Shown here: one piece after another, positions 1 through 37,540 of the stretch | Position numbering within the stretch: the stretch's first letter is position 1 | How the letters are laid out: each line of letters starts with the position of its first letter | From: a virus | IMG/VR virus record: IMGVR_UViG_3300045988_171251 | Reading direction: 5' to 3' (one strand) | Length of the DNA: 37,540 bases | Notes under the pieces: model-generated | Told to the model about the DNA's origin: nothing | Seen by the model: only the letters and a program-made list of their open reading frames with translations | Database searches by the model: none | Program-made: the position numbers and the translations under genes

Positions 1-119
1 AACCTGTTTCTGAATGGCTTGAACAGTTTAAAAGTCCATTTGCGGTTATTTCGTCTTATGAAGACATTCAGGAACTTTTAAGCGATTCAAATACTCCAAC
101 TGTAAAACCAAAAAAAAAC
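1..119. repeat. Terminal direct repeat: 1-119 is identical to 37422-37540, an assembly overlap that closes the genome into a circle.
   Basis: Base-by-base match of the first and last 119 nt. Position 120 onward and the base before 37422 diverge. Confidence 0.9.
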
Positions 120-8386: not shown

Positions 8387-9094
8387 ATGGACGATAAAAT
8401 TATAAGTACGCTAAAATTAAAACGCGCTTTAAATTCACTAAAATCTAAATTTATAGCAACGAATGGCGGTACATTAACTGGAAATTTAACTTTTAACAAT
8501 AACTTATCATTACTTCAAAAGAAAAATAACGGTAATACTGTAAGACTTTTAAAGCTGGATAATTCAAATATTCTAAACATCGGTGATACAGGATGTCAAA
8601 TAAACTTTAGTTCATCTAATAGGCCAAGAATAAACGTTGGACAAAACCCGTACGAGTTAGCATATATTAGTGATATTCCAACTAAACAAAAGATTATGGA
8701 TATGATTTATCGTGTTGGGGCTATATATATGAGCGTCGATTCTACTTCACCAGCCTCATTATTTGGCGGTACATGGGAAGCATGGGGTAAAGACCGTGTA
8801 CCAATTGGTGTTGGGAGCGATAGTGATTTTAATACCGTTGAAAAAACGGGCGGAAGTAAAGAATATGAACTTAGGGCATTGATAGGTGCAGTTGGAGGGA
8901 ATGTTAATACCATAGGCTATGACAGTGAACCCGTTGTATCGGGCTACGGTTCTTATGATATGGTGCTGGATGCTAGTGCAGGGGCTAAACCACAAGGAGC
9001 AAGCAATACTACCAGGGTTGTTAAAAGTGATGGTAAATCACCTACAACAGTACAGCCATATATAACCTGTTATATGTGGAAACGTGTTTCTTAA
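8387..9094 (+). CDS. Tail fibre tip / receptor-binding-like protein.
   Basis: ATG 8387 after an AGGTG SD (the ORF track's GTG at 8378 is the alternative). Motifs GGTLTGNLTFN and VGAIYMSVDSTSPASLFGGTWEAWG resemble fibre-tip domains. Last gene before the lysis cassette. Confidence 0.55.
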   Translation: MDDKIISTLKLKRALNSLKSKFIATNGGTLTGNLTFNNNLSLLQKKNNGNTVRLLKLDNSNILNIGDTGCQINFSSSNRPRINVGQNPYELAYISDIPTKQKIMDMIYRVGAIYMSVDSTSPASLFGGTWEAWGKDRVPIGVGSDSDFNTVEKTGGSKEYELRALIGAVGGNVNTIGYDSEPVVSGYGSYDMVLDASAGAKPQGASNTTRVVKSDGKSPTTVQPYITCYMWKRVS

Positions 9095-11192: not shown

Positions 11193-11432
11193 ATGTTTAA
11201 AAAAGAATTAGATAAAATGATAGTTTTTACTATAAGTGCCATAGCTTTATTTTTTGGATGTATTGCCATTTATCAGGAGTGGCAAGTTAATAATCTAAAA
11301 AGCAGTTTAGAATTAACAAAACAGGAATTACAAGAGACTCGAGACGATAGAGATTATTATAAATCTCAATACCAGAAATATTACGAGCTATCCGAAGAAC
11401 TCCAAAATCAATTAGGCGTTTACTGTGAATAG
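11193..11432 (+). CDS. Small single-pass membrane protein with coiled coil (lysis-associated or superinfection-exclusion candidate).
   Basis: TM segment MIVFTISAIALFFGCIAIY followed by a heptad-like QELQETRDD...SEELQNQL. Directly after the endolysin. Confidence 0.5.
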   Translation: MFKKELDKMIVFTISAIALFFGCIAIYQEWQVNNLKSSLELTKQELQETRDDRDYYKSQYQKYYELSEELQNQLGVYCE

Positions 11433-11584
11433 AATCTATCTAAAACACGGTGCTGAAGATGTTCATGGTAGCAAATTAAATACCCGAATAGAATACATCC
11501 TTATATATAAGGGACTAGTTCATAGTATAATAACTTCTGGATATGGCAAAAAAATATATATCAATAATAAATATTTAAAAATAT

Positions 11585-12412: not shown

Positions 12413-13507
12413 TTATTCTAAATCATCTATAACGTTTAAAATTTCCTGACGTTCGCTAGGGAAAAGATGTCCATAAACACGTTCTACCATTTCTTTACTG
12501 TGTCCGAGTCTTTCGGCAATTGTTAAACTCTTCACTCCGCTATTTATCAAGATGCTAACGTGGCTGTGCCTAAATTCATGAAGTGTAATCCGATTAAGTG
12601 GTCTGTCGCTATGAAGTTCATTATATAACGATATATATGAATCTTTTAGGCGTGTAAAATACTGTTGGTAAATCACATCATAAATTCCGAAGATAAAGCA
12701 GTCGTCATTAAAACCGTCAATATTTTTATCTCTGGCGTATTTTTCCTTTAACTCCTTAATTAATATCCTGTTTAATAAAACGTGCCTGTGCTTGCCATTT
12801 TTTGTATCTTCTGATAATAAATGATTCTTTTCATCCCAGTTGTCATGTACATAAATATCTCTATTGTTCCAGTTTATATCGCTCCATTTTCTTGTCTGCA
12901 CTTCTCCTATTCGCATTCCAGTATGATAAAGCATATCAAAAAATAATCTGTCATCAGGGTCATTAATAACTGTTTTAAATGCTTTATACTCCTCATAGGT
13001 CCAGTATCTTATTTTACTACTGTTCTTTTTGTTTTCATGACGAACAAATTCAACATAATCAAACGGATTTTTATCAATTATCATTCTGCGTACTGCATGG
13101 TTTAATAACCGGTTCAGCATTGATTGAATTATTTTAGTGTAGCTGTTTGAATAATTTTTCTTTAATAACTCATTTTGAAAATCTTCAATGACAGGTATAT
13201 TTATTTTTTGAACTATCATTTCACCAAAGTAAGGCATTAACTGTTTATTTATAAGATATTCAAAATCTTTAAGTGATCTTGCTTTTACCCGAGTTGATTT
13301 ATAAGTGATAAAATCATTTATGAGTTGTTTAAAAGTTATCTGCTGCTTGATTATTTTATCAGACAGTCTATATGCTGCCTCGTAGTTGCGAGCAAGCTCT
13401 TTTGTTTCAAAACCTCTTTTTTTGTGTTTATGCGATTGACCCAATGAATCGGTGTAATCTATAGAAACAAACCACGTATTTCTTTTCTTGTCTTTGTAAA
13501 CTGGCAT
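12413..13507 (-). CDS. int: Tyrosine integrase (phage integrase family).
   Basis: C-terminal catalytic motifs ...RIGE..., HEFRHSHVSILINSGV, LGHSKEMVERVYGHL (R-H-R-Y). N-terminal SAM-like arm. SD GAAGGGAG. Confidence 0.9.
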   Translation of the reverse strand: MPVYKDKKRNTWFVSIDYTDSLGQSHKHKKRGFETKELARNYEAAYRLSDKIIKQQITFKQLINDFITYKSTRVKARSLKDFEYLINKQLMPYFGEMIVQKINIPVIEDFQNELLKKNYSNSYTKIIQSMLNRLLNHAVRRMIIDKNPFDYVEFVRHENKKNSSKIRYWTYEEYKAFKTVINDPDDRLFFDMLYHTGMRIGEVQTRKWSDINWNNRDIYVHDNWDEKNHLLSEDTKNGKHRHVLLNRILIKELKEKYARDKNIDGFNDDCFIFGIYDVIYQQYFTRLKDSYISLYNELHSDRPLNRITLHEFRHSHVSILINSGVKSLTIAERLGHSKEMVERVYGHLFPSERQEILNVIDDLE

Positions 13508-13887: not shown

Positions 13888-15105
13888 TTATTCTTTGTTA
13901 TAATCATCAACTGCTAGAAATGGTAGTAAATCTTTTTCCTTTATAATTTTGATACTTGTTGATTTTTTTAATTCGAGTGCTTTTTCTATTTTTCTTCCGT
14001 AATTACCAAACTTCCATTGGGGTTCTTTATTTGTACCGACTATCAAATAGTCAGTTTTGCCTGATACAGCAGAAGTAACTTTACCGCCAAGAGATATAAT
14101 GTTTTCTATTAATTCAGCTTTTTCTATATAAATAAAATGACCAGTTAAAACAAATTTTGATTTTAAATTAATATCAGTAATTTCATCAAAATCTAATTGT
14201 GTTATTTCATCTGTAACCTCATCATCATTTTTATTTTTATCTAGGTAATCTATATTTTTAAGGTATTTACTAACTTCATTATAAATTTTTTCTGAATTAT
14301 TATTTTCTAAAAAAGTAAATAATTTTGGTGTAAATATTATTTTTTTATCAGTTGATAAAAATTCAAAAAGATGCATTAGAGCAATACAGTCATATCTGGC
14401 ACTATGTTGGTTCTCATAGTGAATACTAAAATGCTCACATAAATTTACTAACGAATATTTTTCTAACTCTGGAAATTTATTTTTGCATTCGGTGAATGTG
14501 CACACATAGTTAATATTTGGATACTCCAGATTATAATGTGTTAGAGTTTTTTTCAGGACATTAAAATCAAAATTTGAATTATGTGATATAATTACATAGT
14601 TTTCAAAAAGTTTTTTAATATTTGGCCATAATTGATCAAATGTAGGCGATGAAGAAACTTTATGCGCATCTAATTTAGTTATTTTTGTATTGATATAATC
14701 AAAGTTTGTTTCAGGATTTATTGTCGTACTATAGTCTTTGATTACTTTTCCGTTTTCAACGATGAGTAACCCAATCTGGCTAATTCTATCATTTTTTTTA
14801 TTTGGAGTTTCCACATCAAATATAGCATATTTATTTGGAAATTTTAGTGGATCACTTACTATTTTTTGTGTACTGTTTTTGGTTTCTATATTTGTTTCTG
14901 TTACTCTTTTGCTTTTATCTAAAAATATAGTTTTTTTTAATTTTAAGGTAAAAAAAGCACCTATACAAGACCAAACAATGTAGAATATTATACCAAAAAA
15001 ACCATATTTATTAAATTGAGAAATCATTATGATAATTCCTAATATTCCAAACAGAGTAAATAAAACAAGCGAATAAAAAATTCCCTTTTTAAATGTCATT
15101 TTCAT
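13888..15105 (-). CDS. Membrane-anchored DnaQ-like (DEDDh) 3'-5' exonuclease with a C-terminal BRCT domain. Sits in the lysogeny operon downstream of the cI-like repressor.
   Basis: SD AAGGAGA 6 nt before the ATG. Two N-terminal TM helices (aa ~10-55). Exo I FDVETP, Exo II HNSNFDFNVL, Exo III HSARYDCIAL. C-terminal FVLTGHF...GGKVTSAVSGKTDYLIVG...KIEKALEL is BRCT-like, as in LigA. Confidence 0.7.
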   Translation of the reverse strand: MKMTFKKGIFYSLVLFTLFGILGIIIMISQFNKYGFFGIIFYIVWSCIGAFFTLKLKKTIFLDKSKRVTETNIETKNSTQKIVSDPLKFPNKYAIFDVETPNKKNDRISQIGLLIVENGKVIKDYSTTINPETNFDYINTKITKLDAHKVSSSPTFDQLWPNIKKLFENYVIISHNSNFDFNVLKKTLTHYNLEYPNINYVCTFTECKNKFPELEKYSLVNLCEHFSIHYENQHSARYDCIALMHLFEFLSTDKKIIFTPKLFTFLENNNSEKIYNEVSKYLKNIDYLDKNKNDDEVTDEITQLDFDEITDINLKSKFVLTGHFIYIEKAELIENIISLGGKVTSAVSGKTDYLIVGTNKEPQWKFGNYGRKIEKALELKKSTSIKIIKEKDLLPFLAVDDYNKE

Positions 15106-15146: not shown

Positions 15147-15782
15147 TTAAAATTTTCCTCTTAATTCAACCACTTTTCCGATTATTTGGACAGGTAATGT
15201 ATTTATTTCCTCTGCGTTATAGAAGATAGGTTCATATGAATTGTTTAACGGGATAAGCATAATACCATTGTCCATTTTCTTTATTTTTTTTACAGTCGCT
15301 TCATTACCGTTTACTAAAACAATTGCTATTTCACCGTTTTCAATATTACTCTGTTTTTTTACAATTACTACATCGCCTTCTAAAAATCTTGGGCTCATAG
15401 AATCACCTTTAATCTGCAATCCATAAAATTCGCCAGTACTAGCCAATTTTATATCAATTTCTTCATAATCTATTATTTCTTCAATTGCATCGATAGGTAT
15501 ACCTGCAATTACTTTTCCAACAACTGGAATACTAACACCACGACCACTCATATTTTGATTTTCTATTTTTTCAGTTAGATTCGATTTCCAAATTCCAAGA
15601 TAATCAGCTATAGCCTGTATTTTATCTATCCTTGGATATTTTTTTCCATTTGCCCATTCGGATACTATACTTGTATTGTATCCTAAGTCATCGGCTAAAT
15701 CTTTTTGAGTTTTGTTAGCAAGACTTAATTGATGTTTTAAATTTCTTGCAAAAATTTGTTTTTGTATATCTTTATCATTCAT
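15147..15782 (-). CDS. cI-like repressor: HTH_XRE plus S24 (LexA-like) autopeptidase.
   Basis: ATG 15782 with SD AGAGGTG. HTH QKDLADDLGYNTSIVSEWANGKKYP. S24 motifs GDSMSP and the lysine in VKKIKK. The track's longer start at 15857 lacks an RBS. Confidence 0.85.
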   Translation of the reverse strand: MNDKDIQKQIFARNLKHQLSLANKTQKDLADDLGYNTSIVSEWANGKKYPRIDKIQAIADYLGIWKSNLTEKIENQNMSGRGVSIPVVGKVIAGIPIDAIEEIIDYEEIDIKLASTGEFYGLQIKGDSMSPRFLEGDVVIVKKQSNIENGEIAIVLVNGNEATVKKIKKMDNGIMLIPLNNSYEPIFYNAEEINTLPVQIIGKVVELRGKF

Positions 15783-15813
15783 GTTTTCACCTCTATTCAT
15801 ATAATTATGATAT

Positions 15814-15893
15814 AACTTAAAGTGAGAAAAAACAATAATAATTTGAAGAAAATTCACTTTTTGATTGACAATTCACTTTAAGTGAGTTATAGT
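15814..15893. promoter_or_regulatory. Genetic switch region: three related operator sites (AACTTAAAGTGAG 15814-15826; TTCACTTTTTG 15853-15863; TTCACTTTAAGTGAG 15872-15886) plus the P(cro) promoter TTGACA (15865-15870) - 17 nt - TATAGT (15888-15893).
   Basis: Divergent intergenic region between the cI-like and cro-like genes. Site 3 is the palindrome CACTT-T-AAGTG and lies in the promoter spacer. Confidence 0.65.
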
Positions 15894-15921
15894 TTATGTG
15901 AAAGGAGGCTAAGATTGAGAG

Positions 15922-18330: not shown

Positions 18331-18357
18331 TTAAATTTGTGGAAAGGAGCAGTAACA

Positions 18358-18651
18358 ATGCGTAAAACGAAAGAGAATATAAATAATATAAGAGAAGAAA
18401 TTATATTTCAGGGACATGCCAATACTCAGGAAATACAGGCATTTATCCCATGCGGATACAAAGAAGCAACAAAGATAAAAAATGAAATTATTGAAAAAAT
18501 AAAAAAGAACGGCAAGACAGTGCTTGTTAGCGGGAGACGTGTATATATTAAACCGGTTCATCTTTTAGATTATATTGATATGACCGAGAAGCAGATACAT
18601 GAATACGCAAAAATGGAACGTGAAAAAGCTGCTATGTCCAGTAGCAGCTAA
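18358..18651 (+). CDS. Hypothetical protein (possible small regulator).
   Basis: SD GGAAAGGAG 8 nt before ATG 18358. The track's upstream start at 18337 lacks an RBS. Confidence 0.45.
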   Translation: MRKTKENINNIREEIIFQGHANTQEIQAFIPCGYKEATKIKNEIIEKIKKNGKTVLVSGRRVYIKPVHLLDYIDMTEKQIHEYAKMEREKAAMSSSS

Positions 18652-18709
18652 TCAATGAAACCACGTTAATTATAGACTATAAAAAGGAGTGTGTCAAAGA
18701 GTATCGAAA

Positions 18710-22572: not shown

Positions 22573-22680
22573 ATAAAAACTATTTTTATTAAAAATTCTC
22601 TCTAATCCGTTGGTACATATGGGGTTAGAGAGAAAATATAAATGCAATATAATATATAGGTTATATTGCACCAAAGGGGT
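22573..22680 (+). repeat. Copy A of a conserved ~110-bp two-hairpin leader element. Hairpin 1 is 22597-22633, hairpin 2 is 22643-22670. It ends in SD AAAGGGG ahead of the TTG at 22687.
   Basis: Near-identical to 28629-28740 in both stems and the flanks, with different loops. Confidence 0.75.
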
Positions 22681-22686
22681 GATAAA

Positions 22687-23337
22687 TTGGCAAGACGAAT
22701 AAAGCATTTTGGCGGTCAGCATGAAACCTTACCAATAAAAGACAAAAAGCAGCTTGATGAATTTATGTTCAATCTTCTAAGGAAAAGAGACAAAGCAAAA
22801 ACGCCAATCAAAAAATACCAAGCTGATCGTAACTGGATGATGTGCATGTTAGGCTTTAATACAGCTTTCAGAGCCGAAGATTTACTTCAACTAAGGGTAA
22901 TAGACGTAAAAAAAGGATACGTGCATATAAAGGAAAATAAGACCGCTAAGATGCAAAATTTTAAGATGAATAAGAAACTGCATAATGATGTTCTGGATTA
23001 CATAAATAGAAACAATCTAACAGACTATGATTATTTGTTTCTTGGACAAAAGAAGGTTCAGAAAGGTAAGAAATACGTTTATCCTATAACGCGACAGCGT
23101 GCACATAAAATTGTATCTAGAAATGCGAAGGAAGTGGGCATCGATTTTACTTTTGGTATGCACAGTTTAAGAAAAACATTCGGATATCAGTATTATGCCA
23201 ATGGTGGTAATCTTCTAACTCTTATGAAGATGTATAACCACGATGAACCCAATGTAACACTCCTGTATATTTGTTGGGGTAAAGAAGATGCGGAAAATGA
23301 TAGAGAAGCAGTTTACTTAGGAGGCGTACATAAATGA
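22687..23337 (+). CDS. Minimal tyrosine recombinase (catalytic domain only, ~216 aa).
   Basis: Catalytic residues: R in FRAEDLLQLRV, K in the IKENKTAKMQNFKM hairpin, HSLRKTFG (H, R), H in MYNHDEP, Y in TLLYICW. TTG 22687 after AAAGGGGTG, parallel to the copy-B arrangement. The track's start at 22666 lies inside hairpin 2. Confidence 0.6.
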   Translation: MARRIKHFGGQHETLPIKDKKQLDEFMFNLLRKRDKAKTPIKKYQADRNWMMCMLGFNTAFRAEDLLQLRVIDVKKGYVHIKENKTAKMQNFKMNKKLHNDVLDYINRNNLTDYDYLFLGQKKVQKGKKYVYPITRQRAHKIVSRNAKEVGIDFTFGMHSLRKTFGYQYYANGGNLLTLMKMYNHDEPNVTLLYICWGKEDAENDREAVYLGGVHK

Positions 23338-23450
23338 TAAGTGATTTTTGGTTAGGTGTGATCCTGACCATTGCAGCAGAAGCAATAATAACAATTTTAA
23401 TCATTGATTATTTAGGTCAGAAAGAAAAGGATGATGAAAATGTTAAATAA
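23334..23450 (+). CDS. 38-aa TM micro-protein coupled by ATGA overlap to the recombinase gene (MISDFWLGVILTIAAEAIITILIIDYLGQKEKDDENVK). Not in the ORF track.
   Basis: SD AGGAGG 10 nt upstream. Stop-start overlap ATGA. Confidence 0.35.
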   Translation: MISDFWLGVILTIAAEAIITILIIDYLGQKEKDDENVK

Positions 23451-23657
23451 ATTGATTTTATTTTTAATTAGAAAGAAACTTCATTTAAAAAAGTTTCAAC
23501 AATTTTATTTTAGTAATCAGGCAATTAAAATAGAAAAATATTATTTTGATAATTATGGTATTATGAAAATTTCAGTTTGTGGATTAGTCAAATCAAATTT
23601 ATCACTTAATTTCTTATTATCTGATGAGTGCAGGATCTTAATTAGGAGATAGGAATA

Positions 23658-23852
23658 ATGAAAAATAATGGCGTTTATAAGCACTGCATGAATTGTAAAT
23701 ATTTTAGATATAGTCATGTACATAATAGCGATTCTAAAAGTTATGTGTGTGAAATAAAGCATAAGTATTTTGATTTCTTTTGTAGATTAAGAGCCAAGTG
23801 GTGCAAATATTTTAAAGAAGGAGAAACAAAATTTTGGAAAATAAAGAAATAA
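23658..23852 (+). CDS. Small Cys-rich (zinc-binding-like) protein.
   Basis: SD TAGGAG. CMNC...C...C...C pattern. Confidence 0.5.
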   Translation: MKNNGVYKHCMNCKYFRYSHVHNSDSKSYVCEIKHKYFDFFCRLRAKWCKYFKEGETKFWKIKK

Positions 23853-24163
23853 CATTAGAACAAGCAATAGTTTTTTTAGAAATGAATGCATATGAAGGAA
23901 GCAATGCAAAAGCTGTTTTACGTATGGGTGATGTACATGAGGTATTAAAACCTATAAAGGGATTAATCGATAAATCGGCCAAAATGGAAAGACATATCAA
24001 ACGGTTGGAGCGACAAAATAAAAGACTGTTAAAAAGAGAAGAACCTCAAGAGCCATACATAATTGAGGGAAAAAAGTTTTGTCCTGAATGTGGTGATGAA
24101 TTGACCGACGTTGATCCAGACTTGTTTGAATACTGTTTTTATTGTGGAACGAAATTATATTAG
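23834..24163 (+). CDS. Protein with a C-terminal zinc ribbon (CPECG-x17-CFYCG).
   Basis: ORF plus a motif paralogous to that of the next gene. Confidence 0.55.
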   Translation: MENKEITLEQAIVFLEMNAYEGSNAKAVLRMGDVHEVLKPIKGLIDKSAKMERHIKRLERQNKRLLKREEPQEPYIIEGKKFCPECGDELTDVDPDLFEYCFYCGTKLY

Positions 24164-24169
24164 ATTGGA

Positions 24170-24547
24170 GTGATAAAGATGAGTAATTTAACAAAAAAAG
24201 AGCGTTTATTACATTCTTTAATTGGAATAAAACAATTATTTAATGATCTAGGCGCTGAGAATTTAAAAAATGAAATAGTGCTAAAAGATGGTACAACAGA
24301 AACAATAGATTGCTATAAAGAAATCGAGACATTTGTTGTTGATTTTATTAATAATGAAGTTGATAAAGCAACGCCTAAAAAAATCAGGTATGAAAATGCA
24401 CCAAAGCCTAGTATGGCATACATGTACTCCTGCCCTAATTGTGGAAGAATGCTAGGCGTTAATTGTAAGCCTACTTATATTAATTACTGTGACGAGTGCG
24501 GTATAAAGTTAGATTGGAGTGATTCAGATGAAAAAGATAATAGGTAA
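24170..24547 (+). CDS. Protein with a C-terminal zinc ribbon (CPNCG-x17-CDECG). Paralog of the previous gene.
   Basis: SD GGAGTGA. Same C-terminal architecture, ending ...CGIKLDW versus ...CGTKLY. Confidence 0.55.
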   Translation: MIKMSNLTKKERLLHSLIGIKQLFNDLGAENLKNEIVLKDGTTETIDCYKEIETFVVDFINNEVDKATPKKIRYENAPKPSMAYMYSCPNCGRMLGVNCKPTYINYCDECGIKLDWSDSDEKDNR

Positions 24548-24755
24548 TTTGCTGTATGACACTGAAAAGGCTGAAAAAATATACAGTTTCATGCAAAAAA
24601 GAAAAATATCAAGTTTTGGTGGAATGAATTTTTATGAATGGTATAGCGTTTTATCGAGGAATACAGTGAGCCGGAATTGAAAGAAATTCTTAAAAGAATA
24701 GACCCTGATAAGTATATAGAATTAGGATTTAATGATTTTGAAAATGCATAAAAAA

Positions 24756-24806
24756 GTACCCTGAAAGTGCGATTTTACGTAAATCAGGGGTACGGTAACT
24801 TTTTTT
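24756..24806 (+). terminator. Candidate intrinsic terminator (imperfect 9-10-bp stem GTACCCTGA...TCAGGGGTAC, then T7).
   Basis: Hairpin at 24756-24793, then GGTAAC and TTTTTTT at 24800-24806. Confidence 0.35.
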
Positions 24807-24941
24807 GAAAAAATAATAATGAATAATCGGCTAAGAGTGTTGATAGCTATAGAGTTTAAACGATTTATGTACTCTAACAAAAAAATTGACACTCTTAGGG
24901 ATTATGTAACTTTTTTTATAAGAGATTGGAGGAGTGGATTA

Positions 24942-25415
24942 GTGAAAATTTTAGATGCATGTTGTGGCTCAAAAATGTTTTGGTTTGATAAAGAAAATCC
25001 GAATGTTACATACATGGATATACGCAGATATAGTGATATTTTGTGCGATGGAAGAAAATTGGAAGTGCATCCAGATGTAATAGGTGATTTTAGAAATATG
25101 CAATTTTCTAATGATGAATTTGACTTAGTAGTATTTGATCCACCGCATTTAATAAAAGCCGGTAAAAATTCATGGTTGGCTAAAAAATATGGATTGCTGG
25201 ATTTTGCTAGTTGGCAAGATGATTTATCTAGTGGTTTTAATGAATGCATGAGAGTTTTAAAACCGTGCGGTACATTGATTTTCAAATGGAATGAAGAACA
25301 AGTAAAACTTAGTGAAGTATTGAAGTGTTTTAATCAAAAACCGTTATTTGGAAATAAGCGTTCTAAAACACACTGGTTGGTATTTGTTAAAAATGAGGTG
25401 AAAGAAAATGAGTAA
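24942..25415 (+). CDS. Small SAM-dependent DNA amino-methyltransferase (motif I then DPPH motif IV). An alternative upstream ATG at 24819 lacks an RBS.
   Basis: GTG 24942 with SD GGAGGAG 7 nt upstream. Motif I ILDACCGSKMFWF. Motif IV DLVVFDPPHL. Confidence 0.55.
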   Translation: MKILDACCGSKMFWFDKENPNVTYMDIRRYSDILCDGRKLEVHPDVIGDFRNMQFSNDEFDLVVFDPPHLIKAGKNSWLAKKYGLLDFASWQDDLSSGFNECMRVLKPCGTLIFKWNEEQVKLSEVLKCFNQKPLFGNKRSKTHWLVFVKNEVKENE

Positions 25416-25680
25416 TAAATTAAGACTACAAATTACAGAAAGATATAAACGAAATGTATTTATAAATGTAGTTGTTCCAGAGGGGAGATTATATGAATTT
25501 GATTGTATTTTAGATAACTATGAAAATTCATACAGCGATTACCAAACACTGATTGAAGAATTGTCTGATAAAGGTTTTAAAATATTATTTGTTGATGATA
25601 ACAAAATATTTGAATTTGAAGAAATACATGATATTGACTACTCATTTATCAATGAAGAGGTAAAAGAAAATGACGTCTAA
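25408..25680 (+). CDS. Hypothetical acidic protein.
   Basis: 8-nt overlap with the methyltransferase stop. 90-aa ORF. Confidence 0.4.
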   Translation: MSNKLRLQITERYKRNVFINVVVPEGRLYEFDCILDNYENSYSDYQTLIEELSDKGFKILFVDDNKIFEFEEIHDIDYSFINEEVKENDV

Positions 25681-25777
25681 ACAAATAGCATTCGTATTTT
25701 TTCTAATAATGTTTATTGCGTTTATTTTGTCGCTCGTTTTGGGAATTAGATATTTATTTAAGGAATGGAGGGGTTGA
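25670..25777 (+). CDS. 35-aa TM micro-protein (MTSKQIAFVFFLIMFIAFILSLVLGIRYLFKEWRG). Its stop TGA abuts the ATG of the next gene. Not in the ORF track.
   Basis: SD AGAGGT 9 nt upstream. One hydrophobic helix. Confidence 0.35.
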   Translation: MTSKQIAFVFFLIMFIAFILSLVLGIRYLFKEWRG

Positions 25778-26539
25778 ATGGCTTATTATTTTTATAGATT
25801 ATTTGAAGTTGATATGAATACTCCGATTGGAAAAAAATTAATTACTGATGATGTAATAATCAGTGATAATAGAGAAACAGCAAAACAGTTAATTATTAAT
25901 AAACATGGCAATCACCCTTTTAGAAAAACAAAAACGATGATATCAGGAGAACGTTATTACTATCTATCAGACAGCAATGAATACTGGTATAAATATCATC
26001 ACGAAGAATATAAAATGAAATGTGATATATGCGGAAAAGTATTTACAGTAATCGGAGGAAAAAATTTGTATAATCACCAAAATAAATATGGAAGTTATTG
26101 TTCTAACACGTGCCGTGATGAATTAATGAATAAAATACGTTCTAATGATCCATGGATTGATGAAAATGATCATTTAGGTATCCCTAAAGATAATGAAAAT
26201 AATTTAGCAGGATATATTTACAGGATAACAAATAAACATACGCTTAAAAGCTATATAGGTAAAACAATAAAACCGCCACTATTTCGATGGTGGCAGCATC
26301 TAAAAGTAAGTAATAAATTTGAACAGTATAATCTAAGCGACTTGGTTTTTGAAGTTTTAGAAATTGTAATTTTTGATGAAAAATCAGATGGTAAAAAATA
26401 TTCGTCAAAAGATGATAAATTGGCACATAGAGAAATGTTTTACATAACACATAATCAGACCGCTGATGAAGGATTAAATAAAATGATTGAAACATCTAAA
26501 ATTGAAACACAGCTTAGTTTAAAACTTGAAGAATGTTGA
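25778..26539 (+). CDS. GIY-YIG endonuclease-like protein (N-terminal Cys4 zinc finger, C-terminal GIY-YIG domain), a homing-endonuclease-type insert.
   Basis: SD GGAGGGG. CDICGK...CSNTCRDE. GYIYRITN...YIGKT...R..WWQH...E. Confidence 0.55.
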   Translation: MAYYFYRLFEVDMNTPIGKKLITDDVIISDNRETAKQLIINKHGNHPFRKTKTMISGERYYYLSDSNEYWYKYHHEEYKMKCDICGKVFTVIGGKNLYNHQNKYGSYCSNTCRDELMNKIRSNDPWIDENDHLGIPKDNENNLAGYIYRITNKHTLKSYIGKTIKPPLFRWWQHLKVSNKFEQYNLSDLVFEVLEIVIFDEKSDGKKYSSKDDKLAHREMFYITHNQTADEGLNKMIETSKIETQLSLKLEEC

Positions 26540-26551
26540 GAGGTGAAAGTG

Positions 26552-27217
26552 ATGGAGACTAAAGTTAGACAAAGCAACTACATAACAATTTTAGGATGGA
26601 TGATATCAGATTTAAAGTTAAAAGGTAATGCACTGCTTATTTATGCAATTATTTACGGCTTTTCACAAACACAAGATTTAGCATATACAGGAAGTAGACA
26701 ATATTTAGCGGATTGGACTAATTCAACACTTCAGGGAGTATCTAAATGTCTAAAAAAATTAGTAGATGATGGTTTTATCAGCAAGAAAGAAAATGTAATA
26801 AATGGTGTTAAATTTTGCGAATATAAAGCAGTAGTTCCCGAGTTGCTACCAGTAAACAAAGTTTACGGGGGTAGGCAACAAAGTTTACATAATAATATAG
26901 AATATAATACTAGTAATATATATAGTGCAAAATTTGATAAAAATGATGCATTTAAAAGATTCTGGAGTGTATATCCAAGACATACGAACAAGAAAAAAGC
27001 ATTTGATGTTTTTGTTAAAAAATGTACCGATGAAACTGTACTGCAAAAGATGTTAAGCGCAGTTGTTGATTATAAAGAGACAGAACAGTGGCAGAATGAA
27101 AGATTTATACCTCACGCTTCCACATGGCTTAACGGCGAAAGATGGGAAGATGAAATCAGTACAGTTTCTAAAAACAATACAAATGATGATAATGGATGGA
27201 TGAGCGGATATGAATAA
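26552..27217 (+). CDS. Phage replisome organizer / DnaD-like replication initiation protein.
   Basis: ATG 26552 after GAGAGGTG. N-terminal wHTH region (LLIYAIIYGFSQ). C-terminal FWSVYPRHTNKKKAFDVFVKK...WLNGERWEDE signature. Confidence 0.65.
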   Translation: METKVRQSNYITILGWMISDLKLKGNALLIYAIIYGFSQTQDLAYTGSRQYLADWTNSTLQGVSKCLKKLVDDGFISKKENVINGVKFCEYKAVVPELLPVNKVYGGRQQSLHNNIEYNTSNIYSAKFDKNDAFKRFWSVYPRHTNKKKAFDVFVKKCTDETVLQKMLSAVVDYKETEQWQNERFIPHASTWLNGERWEDEISTVSKNNTNDDNGWMSGYE

Positions 27218-28403
27218 TTATCAGGATGATCTAATCGGTATGTTTCTTGTTAAACCGCAGCTTCTGGATTTAACTATTCTAAAACCGTCATATTTCGATA
27301 AGAAGCATCGCGATATATTTACTGCTATAAAAAAGTCGTATAAGGAAAATAAAACTATTATTTTAGAGGATATCCTAGCAGTAAAGGGAATTGATGTTGA
27401 TCTTGTTATTGCCTGTTCTACAAGTACCGCAACAACTGCTCTATTTGAACAGTATCAGGATTACGCGATTAAGGAGTATAAAAAGAAAGCCTTATTGGCA
27501 ACTGCTAAAAAGCTCCAGAATGAAGAAATTACAATTGATGAATTTTACAAGGATACAAACAATTTTGCATCTTTAGGGTCTTATTCATCGACGAGGCTTA
27601 CTAAAGAACTGTTAAAAGGTTCTATCACTAAACACAAGAATAATATCAAATTTACTAGATTTACAATTTTGGAAAAGAAACTAAATCTAAAAGAGAATGA
27701 TTTTGTTATACTTGCCGGTGCTACCGGTGTAGGTAAATCAGGTATAGCTATAAATCTATTAGATGATCTGTCTCACAATTATCCTTGTGTATATTTCAAT
27801 TTCGAAATGGTAGAAGAGGAGCTGTATCAAAGGCTTATTTCAATTAATTCAAAATTAAATCAAAAAATGTTAGAGAGTTATGAAACATTGCCACAAAAAA
27901 ATATGAGCGTTGTTAATGATGCAATTGATGATATTTCAAAAAGACATATTGATATTATCAATCATTCATCAACATTGGATAAATTAAGATCGTTTATTAT
28001 GAGCTACAAAAGCGATAAGCATTTTATAGTGTTTGTGGACCATGTAGGGCTTATTGGTGTATGTGTTAAAAACAGTTATGAAAAAATGACAGAAGTAGCC
28101 AAGGAGCTAAGAAAAATGAGTTTGGATAACAACTGTACGATTATTGGACTTTGCCAATTAAACCGGGAAGCAACTAAAAATGCAAAACAGCCTAATTTAT
28201 CAATGTTAAGAGATTCAGGTGAGCTGGAACAAAGTGCAAGCAAGGTTATATTTGTCTGGAAGAACGAAAAAGACTGCGCAGAAGATTATTATCTAGTTAT
28301 CGAGAAAAACAGAAGCGGTCCTAAATCAATTATTCCAATAGGCTACAACAAAGAAAATCAAATTGCCTATGAATTAAGCAATAAGAGAGATTTAAGGACA
28401 TAG
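27210..28403 (+). CDS. dnaB: DnaB-family replicative helicase.
   Basis: Walker A LAGATGVGKSGIAINL. FNFEM. VFVDHVGLI. GLCQLNREA. LSMLRDSGELEQSASKV. Confidence 0.85.
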   Translation: MNNYQDDLIGMFLVKPQLLDLTILKPSYFDKKHRDIFTAIKKSYKENKTIILEDILAVKGIDVDLVIACSTSTATTALFEQYQDYAIKEYKKKALLATAKKLQNEEITIDEFYKDTNNFASLGSYSSTRLTKELLKGSITKHKNNIKFTRFTILEKKLNLKENDFVILAGATGVGKSGIAINLLDDLSHNYPCVYFNFEMVEEELYQRLISINSKLNQKMLESYETLPQKNMSVVNDAIDDISKRHIDIINHSSTLDKLRSFIMSYKSDKHFIVFVDHVGLIGVCVKNSYEKMTEVAKELRKMSLDNNCTIIGLCQLNREATKNAKQPNLSMLRDSGELEQSASKVIFVWKNEKDCAEDYYLVIEKNRSGPKSIIPIGYNKENQIAYELSNKRDLRT

Positions 28404-28416
28404 GAGGATTTAGAAA

Positions 28417-28629
28417 ATGAACAAAAGCGAAAAGCAATATAAAGATGAAATTATAGATAAAAATAGCATTTTTGATGAATTACTTGTACAAGATGATAAA
28501 ACACATCTTTTTATAGTAAAAACATCAAACCAAGGTACTGTTATTGACCCAGGTGAACTAACCGTAGTTTTAATTAAGGATGCAATAAAAAAAGATGATT
28601 ATATCTTTATAAAAAGAACAGAAATTTAA
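28417..28629 (+). CDS. Hypothetical small protein.
   Basis: SD TAGGAGGA. 70-aa ORF. Confidence 0.4.
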   Translation: MNKSEKQYKDEIIDKNSIFDELLVQDDKTHLFIVKTSNQGTVIDPGELTVVLIKDAIKKDDYIFIKRTEI

Positions 28630-28740
28630 TAAAAACTATTTTGATTAAAAATTCTCTCTAATCGCATATGTAACAAGGGATTAGAGAGAAAATATAAATG
28701 CAATATAACATCTTGGATATATTGCACGTTTAAAGGAGTA
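28629..28740 (+). repeat. Copy B of the two-hairpin leader element. Hairpin 1 is 28653-28689, hairpin 2 is 28699-28726. It ends in SD AAAGGAG ahead of ATG 28745.
   Basis: About 85% identical to copy A, with stems conserved and loops replaced. Confidence 0.75.
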
Positions 28741-28744
28741 AAAA

Positions 28745-28969
28745 ATGAAAATAAATAGAACAGATGATTTAGGTATAAGTAATGAACTGTTAGCGGATTA
28801 TATTAAACGATATGAGGCAGCTGTGAATCATGTGTTTAAGGATTACCCTAAACAGCCATCAATTTACAGTCATGAACGGCAGGAGTACAGTGGACTAGAC
28901 ATAAATACATATATCTATATCGCAGATAATTATGAAACATTAAAGGAGAGGCTTAATGGAAGAAAATGA
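28745..28969 (+). CDS. Hypothetical protein, first gene of the late-regulator operon.
   Basis: SD AAAGGAG 7 nt upstream. 74-aa ORF. Confidence 0.45.
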   Translation: MKINRTDDLGISNELLADYIKRYEAAVNHVFKDYPKQPSIYSHERQEYSGLDINTYIYIADNYETLKERLNGRK

Positions 28970-29387
28970 AGTAACAAAAGCAGATATTAAACAGTTTATC
29001 AGAGATGTAACATCATGCGGTTATTACAACCGTAAAATCATATCTTTAACTAATCAGTTAGAAGCAATACATGTTCAGCTTGTGGGGGTAAAATCAATAG
29101 CGCCGAAAGAGTACCATGTTGAGAACAAAATACCGTTCAGTATGCAGGGAATAAATTCTTTACTCATTGATGAAGAAAAATTAATATTAGAACGTGATAA
29201 ATATATTCGTAAGATAAATGAGGTAAGAATACTGTTCGATCAGTTGCCTATTAACATTCAAATCATGATGGTGGAACTGTATGTTTGTGGTTACAATCAT
29301 ACAAAGGTAGCTAACCGTTATAACTTTGCTAGACAGTATTTATATAAACTTATTAATAAATCAGTAAAAAAAGTTTTAAAAAAATAA
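28956..29387 (+). CDS. RinA/ArpU-family late transcriptional activator (sigma-70 region-4-like C-terminus).
   Basis: C-terminal MMVELYVCGYNHTKVANRYNFARQYLYKLINKSVKKV HTH. About 140 aa. Positioned just upstream of HNH and the terminase. Confidence 0.5.
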   Translation: MEENEVTKADIKQFIRDVTSCGYYNRKIISLTNQLEAIHVQLVGVKSIAPKEYHVENKIPFSMQGINSLLIDEEKLILERDKYIRKINEVRILFDQLPINIQIMMVELYVCGYNHTKVANRYNFARQYLYKLINKSVKKVLKK

Positions 29388-29482
29388 AAGAGGTGACAAT
29401 GTAACCTACTTTTATGTGTTATTATGATATTGTGGAAGTTTTGAAAGAACGCCATAACAACAGTTAATCAACACTTTACAGG

Positions 29483-29512
29483 AAGAAACTCGAAAGGGTT
29501 TCTTTTATTTTA
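29483..29512 (+). terminator. Rho-independent terminator after the late-activator gene.
   Basis: Stem AAGAAAC / GTTTCTT with loop TCGAAAGG, followed by TTATTTT. Confidence 0.6.
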
Positions 29513-29588
29513 AACTGTCAATCATGTATGACATTCCTCTCCCTCAAGTCCTGCATGGCTGGCAGTTTAAAATGAGGTGACAGAAAAG

Positions 29589-37204: not shown

Positions 37205-37540
37205 ATGTATAAAGTAATAAAAATTGAAGATAAACAGATTCCCATGATGTCAAATGGCGGTACTTTAAGAGAGTATCGCCATTTTTTTAAGAGAGATATG
37301 CTTACGGACATTCTCAAAATGGAAACAGCATTTAAAAATCAAAAGTTTGATGATATTGAAGTTGCAGAAATTTTAGAAAATATTGCGTGGGTACTTGCTT
37401 ATAAGGCGAATCCAAAAATCGAACCTGTTTCTGAATGGCTTGAACAGTTTAAAAGTCCATTTGCGGTTATTTCGTCTTATGAAGACATTCAGGAACTTTT
37501 AAGCGATTCAAATACTCCAACTGTAAAACCAAAAAAAAAC
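37205..37540 (+). CDS. Tail assembly chaperone (gpG-like), 5' portion. The ORF runs off the window end and continues at positions 120-146 via the terminal overlap.
   Basis: SD AAAGGAGA. Frame in phase with 3..146. Confidence 0.75.
   Translation, partial: MYKVIKIEDKQIPMMSNGGTLREYRHFFKRDMLTDILKMETAFKNQKFDDIEVAEILENIAWVLAYKANPKIEPVSEWLEQFKSPFAVISSYEDIQELLSDSNTPTVKPKKN

What the first reader, a model, noticed from the sequence alone, without database searches (positions are those of the whole stretch)
28629..28740. Copy B of the two-hairpin element sits directly in front of the late-activator (RinA/ArpU-like) operon, suggesting a shared control point for replication and late-gene activation
Exactly two transcription-unit starts in the genome carry the identical leader: the early/replication unit (22687...) and the unit encoding the late activator (28745-29387). 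That is the expected signature of a common regulator such as an antiterminator, a middle-gene activator or an RNA-binding repressor. Translation-level control is also possible, because the 3' arm of hairpin 2 ends about 10 nt before the SD. The copies are direct, not inverted, so this is not a classical invertible switch, even though a recombinase gene follows copy A.
Basis: inference. Interest (0 to 1): 0.7.

Follow-up and report, generated by a model that had tools for sequence, protein, structure and literature searches.

The report
Repeated two-hairpin spacer flanking phage replication genes
A conserved ~100-base non-coding element with two hairpins occurs exactly twice in this gut-bacterium (Thomasclavelia-type) phage and its close relatives, at the start and the end of the replication gene block; it is real and unlisted in the databases searched, but nothing shows that it is a shared on/off switch, and its function is still inferred.

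Summary
Copy A (22573-22672) and copy B (28629-28728) are direct repeats, 83/100 identical. Differences are concentrated in the two hairpin centres, and there are only two copies in the window.

About 100 further copies were found in related viral and gut-metagenome contigs. There are always two per genome, 5.0-7.3 kb apart, bracketing a mosaic replication module.

The element is an island of conservation. What lies upstream, downstream and between the copies varies:
- two unrelated tyrosine recombinases after A;
- different initiators and helicases between the copies;
- 0-3 small ORFs, then different sigma-region-4-like regulators, after B.

So its partner is probably a host factor.

It contains no conserved sigma-A promoter, and no + strand terminator precedes or follows it. 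"Transcription-unit start" is therefore not supported.

Both hairpin centres occur as exact reverse complements in some relatives, which is DNA-level loop flipping. Covariation is not significant. Wobble pairs and folding energies mildly favour folding of the sense strand.

Best guess (about 0.35): a sense-strand intercistronic RNA element, a processing or 5'-stabiliser site acted on by host RNases.

Rivals: a DNA operator, a put-like antiterminator, a recombination site, a minus-strand terminator.

Interest is moderate to low.

The parts
22573..22672 (+). Copy A of the element (A/T-rich 5' flank, hairpin 1, linker, hairpin 2)
   Evidence: Direct repeat with 28629-28728. It folds with z = -5.0.
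22573..22595 (+). Copy A, 5' flank ATAAAAACTATTTTTATTAAAAA. On the minus strand this reads as a U-rich tail after hairpin 1.
   Evidence: AAAAACTATTTT and the A-run are invariant in 64 distinct copies. Only three positions are polymorphic.
22596..22634 (+). Copy A, hairpin 1. Arms at 22596-22607 and 22623-22634, 15-nt centre at 22608-22622 (orientation 'O2').
   Evidence: The centre is the reverse complement of the copy B centre.
22635..22642 (+). Copy A, invariant single-stranded linker AATATAAA
   Evidence: Invariant in all 64 distinct copies.
22643..22670 (+). Copy A, hairpin 2: TGCAATATAA-TATATAGG-TTATATTGCA. The loop is the A-specific type.
   Evidence: The loop is found exactly flipped (CCTAAATA) in L138 and L190.
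22687..23337 (+). 216-aa catalytic-domain-only tyrosine recombinase, first gene after copy A
   Evidence: PF00589 E = 1e-18; phrog_216 E = 2.5e-39. R, HxxR, H and Y residues are present.
26543..28403 (+). Replication genes inside the A-B interval: DnaD-like initiator (26543-27217) and DnaB-like helicase (27210-28403)
   Evidence: phrog_270 E = 2e-29; phrog_19 E = 2e-56.
28417..28629 (+). orf70, last gene before copy B. Its stop codon overlaps the first base of the element.
28629..28728 (+). Copy B of the element (the finding)
   Evidence: It folds with z = -6.5.
28652..28690 (+). Copy B, hairpin 1. Arms at 28652-28663 and 28679-28690, centre GCATATGTAACAAGG at 28664-28678 (orientation 'O1').
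28699..28726 (+). Copy B, hairpin 2: TGCAATATAA-CATCTTGG-ATATATTGCA. The loop is the B-specific type, the same in nearly all B copies seen.
28733..28747 (+). SD AAAGGAG and ATG of orf74
   Evidence: Read directly from the sequence. The distance from element core to start codon is constant at 60-63 nt in most copies.
28745..28969 (+). orf74, small ORF of unknown function that overlaps the regulator gene
   Evidence: Homologues precede the regulator in relatives.
28956..29387 (+). 143-aa putative late regulator with a C-terminal sigma-70 region-4-like HTH
   Evidence: AF2 model pLDDT 86.6. BFVD fold matches are small phage proteins named 'Sigma-70, region 4', DUF1492 or ECF sigma. No sequence-family hit.

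Best explanation
The element is a cis-acting, sense-strand RNA module that lies inside the long rightward early transcript. It is not a promoter or operator.

Inferred mechanism: RNA polymerase coming from upstream reads straight through both copies. In the mRNA the two hairpins fold, and the invariant A/U-rich 5' flank and linker stay single-stranded. A host endoribonuclease then cuts the polycistronic RNA at the element, either of the RNase Y type in the A/U-rich flank or RNase III in the 12-17 bp stem of hairpin 1. The downstream RNA then begins with stable hairpins placed just ahead of an exposed SD. In Firmicutes such hairpins protect against 5'-to-3' decay.

This would give the replication block (after A) and the late-regulator block (after B) their own mRNA stability and translation, uncoupled from the variable genes upstream.

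Because the element is the only sequence conserved among otherwise mosaic relatives, it also acts in practice as a homologous-recombination linker at which modules are exchanged.

Shown: the anatomy, the copy number and placement, the conservation pattern, the lack of a promoter or terminator, and independence from the neighbouring phage genes. Inferred: that it acts as RNA, the cleavage, and the stabilisation.
For: 1. There are always two copies, in the same orientation as the genes, immediately 5' of an RBS. The core-to-start distance is 60-63 nt in most copies.
2. The element has no conserved sigma-A promoter, and no + strand intrinsic terminator lies between the PR-like promoter at 15865 and 30.6 kb. 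Both copies should therefore be transcribed as internal parts of an operon. Copy B abuts the stop codon of orf70.
3. The stems are kept while the loops drift: 89.6% of cells are paired, against 38-53% when the partner is slid, and A/B differences sit in the loops (p = 2e-7).
4. There is a strand bias. G.U-type pairs on the + strand fill 108 cells, against 7 A.C cells. The path C-G to U.G to U-A is seen at pair 36-52. The + strand RNA is more stable than the - strand RNA in 56/64 copies (-27.6 against -24.0 kcal/mol). An internal GxG mismatch is kept in 57/64 copies in both loop orientations, and CxC appears only in the 2 exact flips.
5. The single-stranded flank and linker are as invariant as the stems, as expected for a recognition or cleavage site.
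6. The element does not change while the following all change in relatives: the recombinase (216 aa or 283 aa, 27% identical), the initiator (45-98% identical, or absent), the helicase (42-97%) and the regulator (143, 159 or 177 aa). The cI/cro operator CACTTTAAGTG is unrelated to it. The partner is therefore most simply a host factor.
7. The hairpin 1 duplex length is within the 10-36 bp range of mapped B. subtilis RNase III substrates (PMC11780869).
Against: - There is no expression data of any kind.
- Covariation is not significant: only 2 pairs show double changes, and shuffles do as well. All sequences come from one narrow clade.
- Most + strand wobbles sit at helix ends, and A.C mismatches also occur at 6 positions.
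- Compensatory changes and loop flips can arise from DNA-level template switching in palindromes, without any selection on RNA.
- The stem sequences themselves are invariant, not just complementary. That is equally expected for a protein-bound DNA site.
- The hairpin 2 loop is conserved within each position type (A or B), which a pure 'the loop is irrelevant' model does not explain.
- A sister phage manages with no element.
- There is no Rfam match.
Confidence: 0.35

Rival explanations
1. Double-stranded DNA regulatory site. The two palindromes are operators, or an activator site with a non-canonical promoter, bound by a dimeric protein. The protein would be a host factor or an unidentified conserved phage protein. 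This would give the replication and late-regulator blocks a common transcriptional control, which is the first reader's 'middle-gene activator/repressor' idea.
For: - Both arms of both palindromes are invariant in sequence, while the centres are free to vary and even to flip. That is the pattern expected for dimer-binding half-sites.
- Other phages carrying the homologous recombinase have repeated promoter segments at comparable places: L121, L123 and L126, with TTGACA promoters duplicated 2-6 kb apart.
- In L098 the recombinase follows a 52-nt spacer after a gene on the opposite strand, the arrangement of a divergent promoter region.
- Copy A has TAGAGA-16-TATAAT, a 10/12 match.
Against: - Copy B has TATAAC, which lacks the key final T of the -10 hexamer, in all B copies.
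- That candidate promoter would start transcription inside hairpin 2.
- The arms are 10-12 bp long and 15 or 8 bp apart, which is unusual for HTH dimers.
- The strand bias of the wobble pairs and the kept GxG mismatch are not explained.
- There is no co-varying phage regulator, and the cI/cro operators are different.
Confidence: 0.2
2. Processive antitermination RNA of the put / EAR / canT type. The nascent two-hairpin RNA binds the transcribing host RNA polymerase in cis and makes it resistant to pausing and termination, including Rho-dependent termination, through the replication block and the roughly 20-kb late operon.
For: - It has two stem-loops, in two copies per genome, in the sense orientation at the heads of two long gene blocks. 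This matches the layout of putL and putR (own knowledge; put, EAR and canT are summarised in PMC11658703).
- No phage-encoded partner is needed.
- The + strand folding bias.
Against: - No + strand intrinsic terminator is predicted anywhere downstream of either copy until the end of the late operon, so there is no obvious terminator to overcome.
- No similarity to any Rfam family.
- The loops are free to flip to their complement.
- A sister phage with the same gene order has no element.
Confidence: 0.1
3. Site-specific recombination sites for the adjacent tyrosine recombinase. Hairpin 2 (10-8-10) or hairpin 1 (about 15-7-15 with mismatches) would be a lox/dif-like core. The different centres in A and B would keep the two sites from recombining with each other, which would delete the replication genes. 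A x A and B x B exchange between phages would still be possible, amounting to a natural cassette exchange, or the sites would serve dimer resolution.
For: - A tyrosine recombinase with intact catalytic residues is always the first + strand gene after copy A.
- Hairpin 2 has lox-like geometry with a position-specific 8-bp centre.
- The A and B hairpin 1 centres are never identical within a genome.
- The interval between the copies is highly mosaic.
- One hybrid copy exists, with B-like left half and A-like right half (L245).
Against: - The same arms serve genomes whose recombinases are only 27% identical.
- 40 loci holding 53-90% identical homologues of the 216-aa recombinase have neither the element nor any comparable palindrome upstream.
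- The recombination breakpoints lie at the outer edges of the element and in the 28-nt identical block between the hairpins, not at a fixed crossover point.
- No inverted or excised arrangement was found among about 100 copies.
- L245 sits at a contig end and could be an assembly chimera.
- In L189 a gene on the other strand separates A from the recombinase gene.
Confidence: 0.08
4. Minus-strand intrinsic terminator, acting as an insulator. Read on the minus strand, hairpin 1 is followed at once by UUUUUAAU.AAAAUAGUUUUU. The element would stop antisense transcription from entering the replication and early regions.
For: - The conserved A-run of 5-7 A directly 5' of hairpin 1 on the + strand is a U-run 3' of the hairpin on the - strand.
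- In L189 a minus-strand gene ends right at the element.
Against: - The wobble pairs would be A.C mismatches on the - strand, and the - strand fold is weaker in 56/64 copies.
- There are no minus-strand genes near either copy in the window.
- This does not explain hairpin 2, the invariant linker or the constant distance to the next RBS.
- The scan tool did not call it a terminator, because the loop exceeds 8 nt.
Confidence: 0.1
5. No dedicated molecular function. The element would be a conserved leftover intergenic sequence that persists because it is the homology patch at which modules are swapped, as a recombination linker in the Botstein sense or as a selfish palindromic repeat.
For: - Homology between relatives stops at both edges of the element, and crossovers also occur inside it.
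- The element is confined to one narrow clade and is dispensable in a sister phage.
Against: - A/B divergence is concentrated in the loops, which shows purifying selection on the stems, flank and linker (p = 2e-7).
- The A-specific and B-specific hairpin 2 loops are maintained across all genomes.
- It is not a genome-wide repeat: only one MAG was hit among 185,579 species genomes.
Confidence: 0.1

Closest known systems
PeSL cassettes (promoter-early stem-loop) of T4-type phages (Arbiol et al. 2010, PMC2839356; Comeau et al. 2014, PMC4122927)
   Same: Both are short conserved non-coding cassettes containing a stem-loop, repeated in one orientation. They flank variable genes and coincide with insertion, deletion and replacement boundaries between close relatives, and they act as patches for homologous module exchange.
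   Different: A PeSL is defined by a strong sigma-70 promoter plus a stem-loop that terminates sense transcription. This element has no conserved promoter and no sense-strand U-tract. PeSLs occur in dozens of copies in hyperplastic regions. Here there are exactly two copies, bracketing the replication module, each with two hairpins. Mini-circle formation was not tested.
putL / putR of phage HK022, and other processive-antitermination RNAs (EAR, canT, conAn2; reviewed in PMC11658703)
   Same: Two-stem-loop RNA, two copies per phage genome, sense orientation, at the heads of two operons, with no phage protein needed.
   Different: No sequence or Rfam similarity. No downstream intrinsic terminators are predicted. 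The loops flip freely. The host is Gram-positive. The function is untested.
RNase III processing sites of T7 early and late mRNAs and of Bacillus phage SP82 early mRNA (own knowledge); B. subtilis RNase III substrates (PMC11780869)
   Same: Conserved hairpins repeated between cistrons of long phage transcripts, just upstream of the next gene. The duplex length is within the known substrate range. After cleavage a hairpin is left at the new RNA end and stabilises it.
   Different: There are only two sites. No cleavage data exist, and no sequence similarity could be tested. A second hairpin and conserved single-stranded segments are part of this element.
lox / FRT / dif-type core sites of simple tyrosine recombinases
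   Same: Inverted 10-15 bp arms around an asymmetric 7-8 bp centre, next to a tyrosine recombinase gene. The centres differ between the two sites, as in heterospecific lox pairs.
   Different: The arms stay the same when the recombinase is replaced by a 27% identical one. Homologous recombinases elsewhere have no such site. No recombination products were seen.
Small hairpin-loop inversions in plastid non-coding DNA (e.g. PMC12371153) and quasipalindrome template-switch mutations (own knowledge)
   Same: The loop between short inverted repeats is found as its exact reverse complement in close relatives. Here this is seen in both hairpins.
   Different: That is a mutational phenomenon, not a function. 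Here it occurs in a phage regulatory or boundary element.

Membership tests
PeSL cassette | Strong sigma-70-type early promoter inside the cassette | tested here: not met
   The only candidate is TAGAGA-16-TATAAT in copy A (10/12). All B copies have TATAAC. The number of promoter-like sites is no higher than in shuffles.
PeSL cassette | Stem-loop that terminates sense transcription | tested here: not met
   On the + strand, hairpin 1 is followed by AAAAUAUAAA and hairpin 2 by CC/CG plus a mixed sequence. No terminator is called. A U-tract exists only on the minus strand.
PeSL cassette | Copies flank variable genes and coincide with indel or replacement boundaries | tested here: met
   Homology to the window ends at the element edges. 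At least 3 kinds of sequence follow A and at least 5 follow B. The A-B interval varies from 5.0 to 7.3 kb.
put-type processive antitermination RNA | Two adjacent stem-loops in the nascent sense RNA, one copy per operon | tested here: met
put-type processive antitermination RNA | Lies between a promoter and terminators that must be read through | tested here: not met
   The simple scan predicts no + strand intrinsic terminator from 15.9 to 30.6 kb. Rho-dependent sites cannot be predicted with these tools.
put-type processive antitermination RNA | Acts in cis on RNA polymerase | not testable with these tools
   This needs a reporter or in vitro transcription.
lambda-type nut site | boxA plus a short boxB hairpin with a conserved loop, and an N-like protein | tested here: not met
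   The loops are variable and can flip. No Rfam hit. No N-like gene was recognised.
RNase III processing site | Intramolecular duplex of roughly 10-36 bp (B. subtilis) | tested here: met
   Hairpin 1 has 12-13 perfect pairs plus 2-4 inner pairs. Hairpin 2 has 9-11 pairs. The substrate range comes from PMC11780869.
RNase III processing site | Staggered cleavage giving a 2-nt 3' overhang in vivo | not testable with these tools
   No RNA end data are available.
Simple tyrosine-recombinase core site (lox/dif type) | Two inverted arms around a 6-8 bp asymmetric spacer | tested here: met
   Hairpin 2 is 10-8-10. Hairpin 1 fits only as 15-7-15 with mismatches.
Simple tyrosine-recombinase core site (lox/dif type) | The site co-varies with, and is specific to, its recombinase | tested here: not met
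   The arms are identical whether the 216-aa or the 283-aa recombinase (27% identical) follows. The element is absent next to 53-90% identical homologues.
Simple tyrosine-recombinase core site (lox/dif type) | Recombination products (inversion, excision circle, deletion) exist | tested here: inconclusive
   No inverted arrangement was found among about 100 copies. There is one hybrid copy at a contig end (L245), which may be an assembly artefact.
RinA / ArpU late activators (for the 143-aa protein named in the finding) | Match to the family's sequence models | tested here: not met
   No Pfam or NCBIfam family at E <= 0.01, apart from a sub-threshold HTH_7. phrog_36 matches at E = 8.5e-4. 34 homologues carry no Pfam domain.
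RinA / ArpU late activators (for the 143-aa protein named in the finding) | Small protein with a C-terminal sigma-70 region-4-like HTH, encoded just upstream of the packaging genes | tested here: met
   AF2 model at pLDDT 86.6, with two long helices plus a 3-helix C-terminus. BFVD matches are annotated Sigma-70 region 4, DUF1492 or ECF sigma, with E from 9e-5 to 1e-3. The gene lies before HNH-terS-terL.
Rfam RNA families | Score at or above the gathering threshold for any of 4227 models | tested here: not met
   0 hits at the gathering threshold. The best sub-threshold hits have E > 0.5 and are to unrelated families.

The most novel reading that the evidence does not exclude
The two copies are heterospecific recombination sites: the same arms with position-specific centres, like lox variants. 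They bracket an exchangeable replication cassette whose first gene is the recombinase. This would be a natural recombinase-mediated cassette exchange system that lets related phages swap whole replication modules while preventing self-deletion. The frequent flipping of the centres would then reset site polarity and compatibility.
Probability: 0.05. Interest if true: 0.8.

Novelty: new variant of a known kind. Interest (0 to 1): 0.35.

Why it matters
If the element is an RNA processing or stabilising module, it would be a compact and portable signal by which a Gram-positive temperate phage sets expression of its replication and late-regulator blocks using only host enzymes. It would also be a ready-made insulator part for synthetic operons in Firmicutes.

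Whatever its function, it is a clean natural example of a conserved non-coding island that marks module junctions in a mosaic phage clade. It also shows both hairpin loops flipping to their reverse complements, which is a caution for anyone aligning or assembling such regions.

The clade is narrow, the mechanism is untested, and comparable phage intergenic hairpin cassettes are already known, so the general significance is limited.

Tried and rejected
- **Known RNA family.** Rfam gave 0 hits at the gathering threshold and only noise at E <= 10.
- **Known phage.** blastn of both regions against 50,697 GenBank phage records found no match.
- **Sigma-A promoter in or before the element.** Rejected. 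The -10 candidate is TATAAC in every B copy.
- **Sense-strand terminator or attenuator.** Rejected, because there is no U-tract.
- **Extra cI/Cro operator.** Rejected. The operators are CACTTTAAGTG.
- **Replication origin bound by the phage initiator** (two origins, as in SPP1). Rejected, because the element is unchanged where the initiator is 45% identical or missing.
- **Leader peptide.** The invariant ATG in AAATGCAAT opens MQYNI* in A. In B variants the length differs or the frame fuses to the next ORF. It is not conserved, so it was rejected (read).
- **Host-genome MITE/REP-type repeat.** Rejected. Only one Erysipelotrichaceae MAG was hit among 185,579 species genomes, and both hits are phage A copies.
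- **CRISPR-repeat mimic.** Rejected on anatomy, because the 12-bp complementarity is terminal.
- **Covariation proof of RNA structure.** Attempted on 64 distinct copies but not significant.
- **Hairpin-2-like hairpins elsewhere** (L180/L222, L211/L212). One pair is coding and the other pair lies in an unrelated non-coding stretch, so they are treated as chance.
- **Analogous repeats in 40 loci with more distant recombinase homologues.** Only ordinary duplicated promoters were found.
- **afdb50 fold search.** Not available.
Full report
**What the window is**

The window is a circularly assembled temperate siphovirus genome of about 37.4 kb. Bases 1-119 repeat at 37422-37540. The gene order is as follows:
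- Lysogeny module on the minus strand: integrase 12413-13507, a DEDDh exonuclease-BRCT protein 13888-15105, and an S24 cI-like repressor 15147-15857.
- A PR-like promoter (TTGACA-17-TATAGT at 15865) with a cro-like gene.
- Antirepressor and small genes, then a block of accessory genes running to 22541.
- The interval 22687-28629, which holds a 216-aa tyrosine recombinase, small ORFs, a DNA methyltransferase, a GIY-YIG protein, a DnaD-like initiator and a DnaB helicase.
- orf74 and a 143-aa protein.
- HNH, terS and terL.

The host is probably Thomasclavelia or another Erysipelotrichaceae member.

**Checking the observation**

The two copies are real. 22573-22672 and 28629-28728 are direct repeats 6056 nt apart. 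They are 83/100 identical, and similarity drops to background on both sides.

Each copy has four parts:
- an A/T-rich 5' flank;
- hairpin 1, with 12-nt arms and a 15-nt centre;
- an 8-nt linker;
- hairpin 2, with 10-nt arms and an 8-nt loop.

Both copies fold far better than shuffled controls (z = -5.0 and -6.5). No third copy or half-copy exists in the window.

Thirteen of the 17 A/B differences lie in the 23 loop nucleotides (p = 2e-7).

**Relatives**

Nothing similar is in GenBank phages or in Rfam.

Pattern scans of IMG/VR and of metagenome contigs recovered about 100 true copies, 64-70 of them distinct. All come from one group of human-gut phages and prophages.

Every genome with enough flanking sequence has exactly two copies in direct orientation, 5.0-7.3 kb apart. 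The element is restricted to phages whose 216-aa recombinase is 98-99% identical to the window's. Forty loci with 53-90% identical homologues have no element and no analogous palindrome.

One of these, L098, has a 90% identical recombinase and homologous DnaB, orf74-like and regulator genes, but none of the element. The recombinase gene follows a 52-nt spacer after a gene on the opposite strand, and DnaB, two small ORFs and the regulator gene are packed without spacers. The element is therefore an optional addition to this genome architecture.

**An island of conservation in a mosaic**

The sequence upstream of A comes in at least four kinds. Downstream of A there are three arrangements:
- the 216-aa recombinase;
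- an 85-nt extension followed by an unrelated 283-aa XerC/D-like recombinase, 27% identical in the catalytic domain;
- in L189, a minus-strand gene and then the 216-aa recombinase.

Downstream of B come 0-3 different small ORFs, then an orf74-like gene, then a 143-aa regulator or alternative proteins of 159 or 177 aa, and then HNH-terS.

Between the copies, the initiator is 45-98% identical or missing, and the helicase is 42-97% identical.

Homology to the window typically stops at the element's outer edges. Crossovers also occur inside the element: variants of the 5' flank and of the hairpin 1 centre are shared between A and B positions, while the hairpin 2 loop stays position-specific. The A loop is TAT[A/T]TA[G/A]G. 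The B loop is CATCTTGG in essentially all B copies.

Two conclusions follow. First, the element is in practice a homologous-recombination linker at module junctions. Second, whatever recognises it does not co-vary with the recombinase, the initiator, the helicase or the late regulator. It is also not the cI/cro operator, CACTTTAAGTG. A host factor is the simplest partner.

**Is it a transcription-unit start?**

I found no support for this. The only promoter-like match is TAGAGA-16-TATAAT in copy A. All B copies read TATAAC, and transcripts starting there would lack hairpin 1 and half of hairpin 2.

The phage's recognisable promoters are near-consensus, and relatives duplicate true TTGACA promoters.

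No + strand intrinsic terminator is predicted between 15.9 and 30.6 kb. Copy B begins on the stop codon of orf70. Both copies are therefore most likely transcribed as internal parts of a long rightward operon.

On the minus strand, hairpin 1 followed by the conserved T-run looks like an intrinsic terminator. That reading is kept as a rival.

**RNA or DNA?**

Complementarity is strongly maintained: 89.6% of cells are paired, against 38-53% when the partners are slid. Covariation is not significant at this shallow depth, with two pairs showing double changes and shuffles doing as well.

Three observations lean towards folding of the + strand:
- G.U-type pairs outnumber A.C 108 to 7, and the path C-G to U.G to U-A is visible at pair 36-52.
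- The + strand RNA is more stable than the - strand RNA in 56/64 copies.
- An internal GxG mismatch is present in 57/64 copies in both orientation classes of the centre, while CxC appears only in the two exact flips.

There are three caveats. Most wobbles are at helix ends. A.C mismatches do occur at six positions. The sequences are closely related.

Both hairpin centres are found as exact reverse complements in otherwise near-identical copies. For hairpin 1, L035 and L237 are flipped relative to L080. For hairpin 2, L138 and L190 have CCTAAATA where others have TATTTAGG. Both orientations of the hairpin 1 centre occur at both positions: A has O2 30 times and O1 4 times, and B has O1 29 times and O2 14 times.

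This is the small-inversion behaviour known from short inverted repeats. It shows that the loop sequences are not read in a strand-specific way. It also warns that DNA-level template switching could generate apparently compensatory changes.

**The protein named in the title**

The 143-aa protein has no RinA/ArpU or other family match by sequence.

A confident AlphaFold model (pLDDT 86.6) shows two long helices plus a C-terminal three-helix bundle. Its best matches among viral structures are small phage proteins annotated Sigma-70 region 4, DUF1492 or ECF sigma.

Together with its position before HNH-terS-terL, "late-activator-like" is reasonable as a class assignment. It is not a family membership.

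**Mechanism**

I favour a sense-strand intercistronic RNA element that works with host machinery (confidence about 0.35). The proposed steps are:
- endonucleolytic cleavage in the invariant A/U-rich flank or in the hairpin 1 duplex, whose length is within the 10-36 bp range of mapped B. subtilis RNase III substrates (PMC11780869);
- hairpins at the new 5' end protect the downstream message;
- the SD 6-12 nt after hairpin 2 stays exposed.

This accounts for the orientation, the placement directly before an RBS, the lack of a promoter or terminator, the invariant single-stranded parts, the free loops, the host-only dependence and the strand bias.

It does not explain why the hairpin 2 loop is position-specific. 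It also rests on no expression data.

Rivals, with confidences:
- a duplex-DNA operator or unconventional promoter, 0.2;
- a put/EAR/canT-like processive antiterminator, 0.1; the architecture fits but there are no terminators to overcome (PMC11658703);
- a minus-strand terminator or insulator, 0.1;
- a linker with no function of its own, 0.1;
- recombination sites for the adjacent recombinase, 0.08; this is weakened by the unrelated replacement recombinase and by the absence of the site next to homologues.

**Comparison with known systems**

The closest described analogue in behaviour is the PeSL cassette of T4-type phages (PMC2839356, PMC4122927). However, its two defining parts, a strong promoter and a sense terminator, are both absent here.

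The closest in architecture is put of HK022, but its functional context of downstream terminators was not found.

I therefore class the element as a new variant of the known kind [quoted passage not shown]. It is restricted to one clade and its mechanism is unproven.

Noticed in passing
window 22608-22622 vs 28664-28678; L035, L237, L138:7128-7231, L190: The centres of both hairpins occur as exact reverse complements in otherwise near-identical copies. Hairpin 1: CCCTTGCTACATAAGCG against CGCTTATGTAGCAAGGG. Hairpin 2: CCTAAATA against TATTTAGG. Within every genome seen, the A and B hairpin 1 centres differ from each other.
   Followed up: partly
window 22687-23337; L049:1205-2056, L010, L015, L065: The first gene after copy A is always a tyrosine recombinase, but of two unrelated kinds: a 216-aa catalytic-domain-only protein, or a 283-aa XerC/D-like protein that is 27% identical. 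This is in addition to the normal integrase at 12413-13507. Homologues of the 216-aa protein sit near the start of the early or replication region in many other phages. Its role is unknown.
   Followed up: partly
L245:3900-4180 (contig OGUQ01007697.1): A hybrid copy: a remnant of the orf70 end, a B-type hairpin 1, an A-type hairpin 2 and the leader of the 283-aa recombinase. The upstream 4 kb matches none of the window's proteins. The copy sits at a contig end, so either real recombination or an assembly chimera is possible.
   Followed up: partly
L189 (contig OLPB01000001.1, 196 kb): In one prophage a 217-aa gene on the opposite strand is inserted exactly between copy A and the recombinase gene. 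It ends right at hairpin 2.
   Followed up: no
window 1-119 and 37422-37540: An identical 119-nt terminal repeat. It is either a circular assembly overlap or a direct terminal repeat.
   Followed up: no
window 29388-29576 (inverted repeat 29507-29532 / 29548-29573): A 190-nt non-coding gap between the regulator gene and HNH-terS holds a 26-nt imperfect inverted repeat. It is a candidate late promoter or cos region, and it is unrelated to the element.
   Followed up: no
window 18669-18697 (minus strand) and 18331-18651: A perfect consensus promoter, TTGACA-17-TATAAT, lies on the minus strand in the middle of the rightward early region. ORF calls on the two strands overlap here (76 aa on minus, 104 aa on plus). 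This may be a second divergent control region.
   Followed up: no
window 15800-15895: The cI/cro intergenic region carries repeated CACTTTAAGTG-type palindromes (likely operators) around the PR-like promoter.
   Followed up: partly
window 13888-15105 (minus strand): The lysogeny module encodes a 405-aa protein with a DEDDh (RNase T / Pol III epsilon-like) exonuclease domain fused to a BRCT domain. It lies between the repressor and integrase genes.
   Followed up: no
window 25778-26539: A 253-aa protein with a zinc-finger-like N-terminus and a GIY-YIG nuclease domain lies inside the replication module. It is present in only some relatives, so it may be a homing endonuclease.
   Followed up: no
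window 7352-7447 and 8033-8128: A 96-nt direct repeat (77% identical), one copy in the 368-aa ORF (7271-8377) and the other in the same ORF 681 nt downstream, within the tail and fibre region. It looks like an internal duplication in a tail fibre-like gene.
   Followed up: no
L121:9307-9370 / 11403-11468; L123; L126:2150-2234 / 8623-8707: Other phages carrying the homologous small recombinase have duplicated canonical TTGACA promoter segments 2-6 kb apart. Repeated regulatory cassettes are therefore common in these genomes, but those are true promoters.
   Followed up: no
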